This document shows positions 56,117-56,482 of a DNA stretch of 64,000 nt, piece after piece. The notes under the pieces were generated by a model. It saw only the letters and a program-made list of their open reading frames with translations. It was not told the origin of the DNA and ran no database searches. Origin of the DNA: an uncultured Bacilli bacterium (GTDB lineage: Bacteria; Bacillota_I; Bacilli_A; RF39; UBA660). Position numbers and translations under genes: made by a program. Where the stretch lies: NCBI GenBank assembly GCA_944329365.1, contig CALVIC010000001.1, positions 25,120 to 89,119 on the forward strand. The letters run 5' to 3'. Position 1 is the first letter of the stretch. Every line of letters begins with the position of its first letter.

Positions 56117-56248
56117 CAAAAGTACGTGTCTTTTTACAAAAAGTTATGAAATATATTGCAATTTATATAACTATTCGTTATCTTTATATATAAGGAATGT
56201 TCAATAGAGTTGGTGCGGCCTTCAATTAAAGAATTGGAGGTGATGATT

Positions 56249-56326
56249 ATGACCAAAAGAGAAAGCTCTCTTTATTTTATAATCATACTTCTTTTAATTT
56301 TAGTATTTAAACTTTTATTTAATTAA
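56249..56326 (+). CDS. 25-aa hydrophobic peptide MTKRESSLYFIIILLLILVFKLLFN. Candidate type-I-toxin-like or membrane micro-protein.
   Basis: GGAGGTG RBS 8 nt upstream of the ATG. Polar N-terminus followed by a single TM-length hydrophobic stretch. Lies exactly between repeat copies B and C. Hairpin GCACCTAA/TTAGGTGC starts right after the stop codon. Confidence 0.45.
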   Translation: MTKRESSLYFIIILLLILVFKLLFN

Positions 56327-56327
56327 A

Positions 56328-56482
56328 AGAATGCACCTAACTCATCAACAATGATTTAGGTGCGCCAAATAATTTTATATATAGGTCGCATTCAACATTG
56401 CAGCATTGAATGTTCCTTTTTATTATATGAAGTTTCCTTCATCTATATTCATTGTAACACAAAATTAACTTTATGACAAATT
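56328..56482 (+). repeat. Composite intergenic repeat, copy C
   Basis: …GGTCGCATTCAACATTGCAGCATTGAATGTTCCTTTTTATTATATGAAGTTTCCTTCATCTATATTCATTGTAACACAAAATTAACTTTATGACAAATT. The core differs from copy A at only a few positions. Confidence 0.75.

What the first reader, a model, noticed from the sequence alone, without database searches (positions are those of the whole stretch)
56221..56345. 25-aa hydrophobic mini-ORF between two repeat copies, type-I-toxin-like
MTKRESSLYFIIILLLILVFKLLFN has a charged N-terminus and one TM-length helix, the canonical shape of Fst/Ldr/TxpA-type toxins. It has a good GGAGGTG RBS. A hairpin (GCACCTAA/TTAGGTGC) starts immediately after its stop and is part of repeat copy C. 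In type I TA loci the antitoxin sRNA often overlaps such a 3' structure. A second short ORF with a strong RBS (2461..2574, minus strand, 37 aa) sits in the same relation to repeat copy 1. The repeats may therefore be associated with micro-protein genes.
Basis: partly seen in the sequence, partly recalled or inferred. Interest (0 to 1): 0.55.

Follow-up and report, generated by a model that had tools for sequence, protein, structure and literature searches.

The report
New type I toxin–antitoxin family

Summary
ORF 56249-56326 (MTKRESSLYFIIILLLILVFKLLFN), its GGAGGTG ribosome-binding site and the hairpin after its stop all exist. Alone they prove little in such AT-rich DNA.

The conserved repeat core retrieved 71 loci from 44 gut Bacilli assemblies. 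In 55 of 72 unique copies, a 22-33 aa hydrophobic ORF with a strong ribosome-binding site ends 73-105 nt upstream of the core. Codon-position substitution patterns indicate purifying selection on the peptide.

On the opposite strand the core is a positionally conserved extended -10 promoter. It would drive a ~120-nt antisense RNA: an invariant 5' stem-loop, a covarying hairpin, then a terminator. This RNA would overlap only the 3' UTR of the toxin mRNA.

The 5' end of the toxin mRNA pairs with its own 3' end. This pairing covaries between loci and is strand-specific.

No Pfam, NCBIfam, PADLOC, PDB or Rfam match was found, and the peptides are absent from the protein collection.

Copies A and B are decayed modules that keep only the antisense part.

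Verdict: a new family of a known kind. Toxicity and transcripts remain untested.

The parts
56156..56184 (+). Predicted toxin promoter of copy C: -35 TTGCAA (56156-61), 17-nt spacer, -10 TATCTT (56179-84). The predicted transcription start is around 56192.
   Evidence: Sequence. In relatives, a TATAAT box (often TGnTATAAT) sits 6-8 nt upstream of the same GGAA 5' motif. The -10 box varies between near-identical strains: TATCTT, TATACT, TATCCT.
56192..56220 (+). 5' arm of the toxin mRNA panhandle (AAGGAAUGUUCAAUAGAGUUGGUGCGGCC). It pairs with 56384-56418.
   Evidence: The MFE and centroid folds of 56192-56423 close the two ends; z-score -8.4. Covariation across loci and strand asymmetry support it.
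56219..56242 (+). Local anti-SD/SD hairpin (CCTTCAATT-AAAG-AATTGGAGG) and SD GGAGGTG (56236-42).
   Evidence: Sequence. Across 17 representatives, the probability that the SD is unpaired is 0.27 against 0.37 with the upstream sequence shuffled, p=0.027. The support is modest.
56249..56326 (+). Toxin-like mini-ORF, 25 aa, MTKRESSLYFIIILLLILVFKLLFN (stop included).
   Evidence: Family members are listed.
56333..56363 (.). Hairpin 1 (GCACCTAA...TTAGGTGC). On the minus strand a U-run follows it, making it the predicted terminator (SL3) of the antisense RNA.
   Evidence: An equivalent hairpin of different sequence sits at the same place in every representative.
56384..56421 (.). Hairpin 2 (CATTCAA...TTGAATG, 56389-56412) plus TTCCTTTTT. 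It is the predicted terminator of the toxin mRNA and the 3' arm of the panhandle. On the minus strand it forms SL2 of the antisense RNA.
   Evidence: All 7 stem pairs show compensatory changes among 18 representatives.
56427..56442 (-). Invariant palindrome ATGAAGnnnnCTTCAT. It forms the 5' stem-loop (SL1) of the antisense RNA and is the centre of the conserved repeat core.
56320..56444 (-). Predicted antisense (antitoxin) RNA of copy C, about 120 nt. It runs SL1, an A-rich linker, SL2, SL3, then a U-run. It overlaps the toxin 3' UTR and ends at the stop codon.
   Evidence: Fold z-score -4.6. The architecture is conserved in 18 representatives that are less than 80% identical.
56451..56479 (-). 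Antisense promoter: -35 TTGTCA (56479-74), extended -10 TGTTACAAT (56459-51).
   Evidence: Promoter scan. TGn upstream of the TAnnAT-type -10 box sits at the fixed position in 66 of 70 loci, and the -35 matches at least 4 of 6 in 55 of 70.
2336..2665 (-). Second intact module (copy 1).
- Toxin promoter: -35 TTGCAC 2665-60, extended -10 TGgTATAAT 2645-37.
- 5' arm 2630-2598; SD AAGGAG 2585-80.
- ORF 2567-2478, MNKKDFLITFQVIIIILLIVSLMILCIKK.
- Hairpin 1 at 2479-2451; hairpin 2 plus T-run at 2431-2394.
- SL1 at 2388-2373.
- The antisense RNA is on the + strand, about 2371-2490, with its -10 TACAAT at 2359-2364.
   Evidence: (panhandle in the MFE fold).
50512..50666 (-). Copy A: an orphan antisense-RNA gene. 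Core 50598-50666, SL1 50613-28, -10 TACGAT 50642-37, hairpin 2 at 50574-97, hairpin 1 at 50524-55. Upstream is a decayed toxin remnant with no start codon or SD.
   Evidence: The related remnants at L005:4596 and L026 still show ...IIFFQLSLLLITLI-like codons.
55901..56115 (-). Copy B plus a further fragment, both degenerate modules. The toxin and the 5' arm of hairpin 1 are lost. Hairpin 2 lies around 56027-56050 and SL1 at 56066-81. The -10 TACAAT (56091-86) is only 4 nt from SL1.
   Evidence: The Coprosoma homologue at L008:3875 still carries a toxin C-terminal remnant.

Best explanation
The mini-ORF is the toxin gene of a previously undescribed type I toxin-antitoxin-like family. The family is multi-copy and occurs in uncultured gut Bacilli (Candidatus Coprosoma and relatives).

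Each module has two convergent transcription units.
(1) A toxin mRNA of about 230 nt. It runs from its own promoter through a 5' UTR, a strong SD, a 22-33 aa single-helix hydrophobic peptide ORF, hairpin 1, then hairpin 2 with a U-run as terminator.
(2) An antisense RNA of about 120 nt. It starts from an extended -10 promoter inside the conserved repeat core. It begins with an invariant stem-loop and an A-rich linker, then runs antisense through hairpins 2 and 1. It terminates at hairpin 1 plus a U-run, right at the ORF stop.

Shown in silico: the coding constraint, both promoters, both terminators, hairpin covariation, and a covarying, strand-specific pairing of the extreme 5' end of the toxin mRNA with its own 3' end.

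Inferred mechanism: the antisense RNA pairs with the ~95-nt 3' UTR overlap. This creates a long duplex that is cleaved, presumably by RNase III, so the toxin mRNA is degraded, as in TxpA/RatA and BsrG/SR4. The 5'-3' panhandle and local SD/AUG hairpins keep the full-length mRNA stable but poorly translated. The 5' UTR has nearly the same sequence as the antisense RNA's SL2 region, so the two compete for the same 3' site. If translated, the peptide inserts into the membrane and is harmful.

Copies A and B are decayed modules that retain only the antisense gene.
For: - Conservation: the core pattern hits 71 loci in 44 GTDB species-representative assemblies. 55 of 72 unique copies have an intact hydrophobic ORF. 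Most have an AGGAGG SD, and the stop lies 73-105 nt upstream of the core.
- Coding: substitutions follow 3rd > 1st > 2nd codon position in all four subfamilies (949/616/1478, 233/143/292, 120/54/156, 50/23/124). Synonymous changes are 49-72% of single-nucleotide codon differences.
- Decay: frameshifted, truncated or deleted ORFs occur with the antisense part retained.
- Antisense gene: TGn upstream of the TAnnAT-type -10 box is at the fixed position in 66 of 70 loci, and the -35 matches at least 4 of 6 in 55 of 70. All 7 SL2 pairs carry compensatory changes. SL3 plus a U-run is present in all 18 representatives. The fold z-score is -4.6.
- Toxin mRNA: fold z-score -8.4 with the ends paired. 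The native 5'/3' duplex averages -31.9 kcal/mol against -17.9 for non-native partners. The native partner is best in 13 of 18, permutation p<1e-4. The sense strand gives -31.9 against -25.8 for the antisense strand, p=0.0005, with more G-U pairs.
- Toxin promoters lie just upstream of the 5' arm.
- The copies sit in unrelated gene contexts and in tandem arrays within the window.
Against: - There are no transcript, ribosome or phenotype data. Transcription starts and ends are predicted only.
- Toxicity is inferred from the shape of the peptide and the genomic behaviour of the modules.
- SD occlusion is only modestly better than in shuffled controls.
- The window copy has a weak -10 box (TATCTT).
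- The loci were retrieved through the core pattern, so the universality of the core is partly an effect of how they were found.
- All relatives are MAGs.
- Some subfamilies (MLELL... with a GTG start, MELVAF...) show weak panhandles in the interval tested.
Confidence: 0.75

Rival explanations
1. This is a real small membrane protein with a cis-antisense regulator, but it is not a toxin. It could be, for example, a small regulatory or structural membrane subunit whose level is tuned by the antisense RNA.
For: The coding and antisense evidence does not itself show toxicity. Many small hydrophobic bacterial proteins are harmless.
Against: The genes occur in several diverged copies per genome, in tandem arrays and unrelated gene contexts. 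They are often pseudogenised while the antisense gene is kept. The mRNA is strongly self-closed. This is the behaviour of selfish type I TA loci, not of a housekeeping subunit with a fixed partner operon.
Confidence: 0.15
2. The repeats are non-coding elements: REP/MITE-like inverted-repeat units, or terminator-promoter cassettes. On this view the mini-ORFs are by-products of AT-rich sequence.
For: The 5' and 3' arms look like ~28-bp terminal inverted repeats. Contigs often break at the core, which is typical of repeats. AT-rich DNA yields many I/L/F-rich ORFs.
Against: Synonymous changes are in excess and third codon positions vary most. 55 of 72 frames are open with AGGAGG at the right spacing. 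The arm pairing is better on the sense strand, with excess G-U pairs, which argues for RNA-level rather than DNA-level selection. No transposase or plasmid/phage association was found.
Confidence: 0.04
3. The conserved core encodes the N-terminus of a leaderless reverse-strand peptide (MKETSYNKKG...). The 'antisense RNA' would then be an mRNA.
For: Reverse-strand ORFs of 26-29 aa start at the ATG of the palindrome in all four window copies, 8 nt after the -10 box in three of them and 4 nt in copy B.
Against: The A/T-run just after the conserved part varies from 3 to 7 nt, so the frame is not kept. Reverse ORF lengths scatter from 7 to 73 aa. The variable part covaries as hairpins.
Confidence: 0.02
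4. One reading: the 37-aa ORF 2461..2574(-) is the micro-protein associated with repeat copy 1.
For: Its ATG sits 5 nt after AGGAG, a closer spacing than for the 29-aa frame.
Against: The peptide is not hydrophobic (GRAVY -0.20). It occurs only in the window and the near-identical L043. Its ATG arises from a TTGATG variant of the family's TTGATA/T spacer. The overlapping 29-aa frame is the one conserved family-wide.
Confidence: 0.04

Closest known systems
TxpA/RatA and BsrG/SR4, BsrE/SR5, YonT/SR6 (Bacillus subtilis type I TA)
   Same: A small hydrophobic toxin in a Firmicute. A convergently transcribed antisense RNA overlaps the 3' end of the toxin mRNA by about 100 nt. The expected action is duplex formation and RNase III-dependent decay. 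These families are often on dispensable DNA and present in several copies.
   Different: Here the overlap is confined to the 3' UTR and ends at the stop codon. In those families it reaches into the ORF, according to the T1TAdb paper PMC8594479. The toxins here are much shorter: 22-33 aa against my recollection of about 38-59 aa, which I did not check. There is no sequence or covariance-model similarity (BsrG RF01412 scores 12.5 bits against a 55-bit threshold). The antisense RNA has an invariant 5' stem-loop module that these families are not reported to have.
Fst/RNAII (par of pAD1) and SprA1/SprA1AS
   Same: Convergent promoters, with the antisense RNA on the 3' side and not overlapping the ORF. 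The SD is sequestered within the mRNA and the 5' end is sequestered by a helix. The N-terminus carries charged residues (K, D) ahead of a transmembrane helix (PMC7472228).
   Different: There is no PXXXG motif and no long charged C-terminal tail. No Pfam, NCBIfam or PDB match was found. There are two separate unidirectional terminators, not one shared bidirectional terminator. There is no DRa/DRb-type complementarity between the antisense 5' domain and the translation start (mean z -0.5). Instead, the antisense 5' region resembles the toxin 5' UTR.
hok/Sok and AapA1/IsoA1 (Gram-negative type I TA)
   Same: A long-distance 5'-3' pairing closes the full-length toxin mRNA, as with tac-fbi in hok and the 5'-3' long-distance interaction in aapA1. 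T1TAdb cites this as a general type I TA element (PMC8594479).
   Different: In those systems the antisense RNA targets the 5' or translation-start region and lies wholly within the mRNA. Here it targets the 3' arm of the panhandle itself. The toxins are unrelated and the host phylum differs.

Membership tests
Type I toxin-antitoxin system (generic kind) | Small (<60 aa) hydrophobic, single-helix peptide ORF with its own ribosome-binding site | tested here: met
   Peptides are 22-33 aa with GRAVY 1.2-2.8, and most have an AGGAGG SD. Coding constraint is shown.
Type I toxin-antitoxin system (generic kind) | Antisense RNA gene with its own promoter and terminator, complementary to the toxin mRNA | tested here: met
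   A conserved extended -10 and -35, SL2 covariation, and SL3 plus a U-run. This is sequence-level evidence only; no transcripts were observed.
Type I toxin-antitoxin system (generic kind) | The peptide is toxic when expressed, and the RNA neutralises it | not testable with these tools
   This needs expression experiments. Indirect support comes from frequent ORF inactivation with the antisense part retained.
Type I toxin-antitoxin system (generic kind) | Toxin mRNA folded so that translation is restrained (SD/AUG occlusion or 5'-3' closure) | tested here: met
   5'-3' closure: fold z-score -8.4, covarying and strand-specific. SD occlusion alone is only modest.
Fst/Ldr superfamily (par, SprA1) | Toxin with a PXXXG(C) motif and charged C-terminal tail; match to the Fst profile | tested here: not met
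   The family consensus and nearly all 23 aligned peptides lack Pro and Gly, and none has a PXXXG motif. No Pfam or NCBIfam family matches at E<=10. No PDB match was found, and the PDB should include the solved Fst and PepA1 structures.
Fst/Ldr superfamily (par, SprA1) | Shared bidirectional terminator, plus direct repeats that make the antisense 5' domain complementary to the toxin translation start | tested here: not met
   There are two separate hairpins, each with a U-run on one strand only. Pairing between the antisense 5' domain and the translation-initiation region is no better than shuffles.
TxpA/RatA, BsrG/SR4-type | Convergent antisense RNA overlapping the toxin mRNA 3' end | tested here: met
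   The predicted overlap is about 95-100 nt, 56322-56421.
TxpA/RatA, BsrG/SR4-type | The overlap extends into the ORF; sequence or covariance-model similarity to RatA, SR4 or BsrG | tested here: not met
   The antisense terminator sits at the stop codon. Rfam gives no hit at gathering threshold, and BsrG scores 12.5 bits against 55.
hok/Sok, AapA/IsoA | Antisense RNA acting on the 5' or translation-start region; Hok/Gef or AapA peptide homology | tested here: not met
   The antisense RNA lies on the 3' side. There are no Pfam hits. Only the 5'-3' closure is shared.

The most novel reading that the evidence does not exclude
This would be a lineage-wide type I TA family with its own regulatory logic. 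The toxin mRNA's 5' end is a built-in mimic of the antitoxin, and both compete for the same 3' hairpin. Antitoxin binding would then work by prising open a protective 5'-3' panhandle, exposing both ends to nucleases, rather than by masking the ribosome site. The invariant ~40-nt 5' module of every antisense RNA (SL1 plus the A-rich linker) would be a shared handle for a host factor. Through that handle, orphan antisense copies could cross-regulate the intact toxins.
Probability: 0.25. Interest if true: 0.7.

Novelty: new variant of a known kind. Interest (0 to 1): 0.6.

Why it matters
[quoted passage not shown] None of the 26 peptide sequences looked up, including alternative starts and the rejected 37-aa frame, is in a 15-billion-protein collection.

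This locus adds a well-defined family. It has a toxin, an antitoxin RNA, both promoters, both terminators and a covarying mRNA fold. It occurs in at least 44 species-level genomes of uncultured gut Bacilli with small genomes, where no such system appears in the libraries and papers I searched.

It supplies a DNA signature for annotating these modules, and it explains frequent contig breaks in these MAGs. It also gives a testable example of 5'-3' mRNA closure combined with a 3'-overlapping antitoxin in a Gram-positive lineage. The short peptides (22-33 aa) could be synthesised and tested directly as membrane-active agents.

Tried and rejected
- Rfam gave only the T-box and a tRNA in the window at gathering threshold. 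At E-value level there was only noise around the locus: PGK RNA 26.8 bits against 50.8, BsrG 12.5 against 55. I inspected the PGK alignment and rejected it.
- Pfam, NCBIfam, PADLOC and PDB profile searches with up to 23 peptides gave nothing meaningful.
- Exact look-ups of 16 peptide sequences found none in the protein collection.
- Plasmid and phage BLAST of the module found no match. The single IMG/VR pattern hit, L079, is a chance match inside a coding region.
- Near-identical strains (L004, L005) are too close to inform on selection.
- The reverse-strand leaderless ORF 'MKETSYNKKG' was rejected.
- Fst-like trans pairing of the antisense 5' domain with the translation start was rejected.
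- MAFFT plus RNAalifold recovered SL1 and SL2 but not SL3, because the spacers vary in length. SL3 was instead judged from per-sequence folds.
- An nhmmer profile of the core found no further copies in the window.

Full report
**1. What is at the coordinates.**
The window is AT-rich Firmicute DNA. The finding lies in the 952-nt spacer between an RlmA-like methyltransferase gene (55076-55900) and the T-box leader of pheST (Rfam T-box at 56564-56762; pheS from 56853). The ORF 56249-56326 encodes MTKRESSLYFIIILLLILVFKLLFN. Its SD is GGAGGTG at 56236-42. The hairpin GCACCTAA/TTAGGTGC lies at 56333-63. These features alone are not beyond chance, because dozens of similar short ORFs occur nearby.

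**2. The repeat.**
There are four copies in the window: 2336-2402(-), 50598-50666, 56051-56109 and 56413-56480. The shared core is TTCCTTTTTTATTATATGAAGTTTCCTTCATCTATATACATTGTAACA... An exact search for TTATATGAAGNNNCCTTCATNTAT in one genome per GTDB species returned 71 loci from 44 assemblies. Almost all are gut MAGs labelled uncultured Bacilli, Firmicutes or Tenericutes. They include Candidatus Coprosoma intestinipullorum, Clostridium sp. CAG:451 and Coprobacillus sp. CAG:605. Contigs frequently end at the core, as expected for a multi-copy repeat.

**3. The ORF is a gene.**
- In 55 of 72 unique copies, a 22-33 aa strongly hydrophobic ORF ends 73-105 nt upstream of the core. Most have an AGGAGG SD.
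- Subfamilies include MTKRE..FIIIILL.. (the window ORF), MNKKDFLI.., MSKKDLLISLLVVIIMLLIGLLYK, MKTKTFIIKVLKLISIILLLLINLIIVIKK and MLELLVLALIVILYTIIAIKNK.
- Within four subfamilies, nucleotide differences follow 3rd > 1st > 2nd codon position. Synonymous changes make up 49-72% of single-nucleotide codon differences.
- The other 17 copies are decayed. L039 has a premature stop. In L048 the ORF body is deleted. L005:4596, L026 and window copy A have lost the start and SD. L008:3875 keeps only a C-terminal remnant, and window copy B keeps even less.
The conserved one is 2478-2567(-), MNKKDFLITFQVIIIILLIVSLMILCIKK.

**4. The core is an antisense gene start.**
- On the reverse strand, TGn upstream of the TAnnAT-type -10 box occupies a fixed position in 66 of 70 loci. 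A -35 matching at least 4 of 6 lies at 16-18 nt in 55 of 70.
- The predicted RNA starts with an invariant stem-loop (AUGAAGGAAACUUCAU) and an A-rich linker. It then runs antisense through hairpin 2 (SL2) and hairpin 1 (SL3), followed by a U-run at the ORF stop. Eighteen representatives under 80% identical all fold this way, with different stem sequences.
- All 7 SL2 pairs show compensatory changes.
- The window RNA (56444 to 56320, minus strand) has a fold z-score of -4.6.
- A reverse-strand leaderless ORF (MKETSYNKKG...) is excluded. The adjacent homopolymer run varies from 3 to 7 nt, and ORF lengths scatter from 7 to 73 aa.

**5. The toxin mRNA.**
- TATAAT-type boxes sit 6-8 nt upstream of a conserved GGAA(U/C)A.. 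5' motif. In the window the boxes are TTGCAA-17-TATCTT.
- That 5' end (56192-56220) is complementary to both arms and flanks of hairpin 2 (56384-56418). The MFE and centroid structures of 56192-56423 close the ends, with a z-score of -8.4.
- Across 18 representatives, the native 5'/3' duplexes average -31.9 kcal/mol against -17.9 for non-native partners. The native partner is the best in 13 of 18, with permutation p<1e-4.
- The same pairing computed on the opposite strand is weaker (-25.8, Wilcoxon p=0.0005) and has fewer G-U pairs (34 against 59). This points to selection on the sense RNA rather than on a DNA inverted repeat.
- Local SD occlusion is present but modest.
- The antisense 5' domain does not pair with the translation start.

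**6. Mechanism.**
Sequence analysis shows two convergent genes, a 3'-UTR overlap of about 95-100 nt, a self-closing toxin mRNA, a peptide under selection, and frequent decay of the toxin while the antisense gene is kept.

The rest is inferred. The antisense RNA pairs with the overlap and triggers decay of the toxin mRNA, as in TxpA/RatA-type systems. The panhandle and local hairpins limit translation and stabilise the mRNA. The 5' UTR and the antisense RNA compete for the same 3' site. The peptide is a membrane toxin.

**7. Comparison with known families.**
No Pfam, NCBIfam, PADLOC, PDB or Rfam match was found. The peptides are absent from the protein collection. The family is not on plasmids or phages.
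- The layout is closest to the Gram-positive 3'-overlap families listed by T1TAdb (PMC8594479).
- It fails the Fst-defining features described in PMC7472228: PXXXG, a bidirectional terminator and DRa/DRb.
- It shares only the 5'-3' closure with hok and AapA1.

**8. Verdict.**
This is a new family of a known kind. It is well defined computationally but experimentally untested.

Noticed in passing
window 50820-52162: A 31-aa Cys/Gly-rich ORF (MKKIDLTKLLNNKNSVMPDCGPSHSCGGGGR) with a strong SD lies immediately upstream of a 404-aa radical-SAM protein and an ABC-F-like ATPase. It looks like a RiPP precursor-maturase pair. Repeat copy A lies just upstream.
   Followed up: no
L004 5950-7061, L005 4727-6286, against window about 50700-53990: Strains with an identical PheS carry different cassettes between repeat copy A and the SpoU methylase gene. 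The window and L001 have radical-SAM plus ABC, L004 has PadR plus HAAS plus a small ORF, and L005 has ABC only. This is a strain-variable hotspot next to the repeat.
   Followed up: no
window 56066-56081 against L005 8434-8449: The SL1 palindrome of copy B reads ATGAAGGAACCTTCAT in the window and L004, but ATGAAGGTTCCTTCAT in L005. The L005 version is the exact reverse complement, so this could be a hairpin inversion or two point changes.
   Followed up: no
window 56179-56184 and 56236; L004 9039-10008: Among near-identical strains, some of the few substitutions fall in the toxin -10 box (TATCTT, TATACT, TATCCT) and the SD. L004, with the best -10 box, has GGAGG changed to TGAGG. This may be compensatory tuning of toxin expression.
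   Followed up: partly
window 55962-55998: A GC-richer perfect hairpin (AAGTGAACTGTCC-ATTTTTCGG-GGGACAGTTCACT) is inserted where copy B's toxin and half of hairpin 1 should be. Before it lies a fragment (55906-55960) resembling hairpin 1 of copy A plus GGTAGAC(A/G)TTCAAC. The spacer therefore holds remnants of at least three tandem modules.
   Followed up: partly
L009, L016, L030, L032, L050, L058, L060, L068, L077 (MLELL subfamily): This subfamily has two SDs. The first (AAGGAGGT, with its own anti-SD ACTCCTT hairpin) precedes an ATG that opens a non-hydrophobic 28-aa frame. The second (AGGAGG) precedes a GTG that starts the hydrophobic peptide in another frame. This may be a leader ORF or translational coupling. 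The 5'-3' pairing was weak in the interval tested.
   Followed up: no
window 56564-56762 and 60370-60441(-): A T-box leader (128 bits) lies upstream of pheS-pheT, and a tRNA gene lies on the minus strand. Both are ordinary. The T-box promoter TTGAAA-16-TATAAT is at 56523-56550.
   Followed up: no
window 2572-2574(-): In copy 1 an out-of-frame ATG sits 5 nt after the SD, arising from a TTGATG variant of the family spacer.
   Followed up: partly
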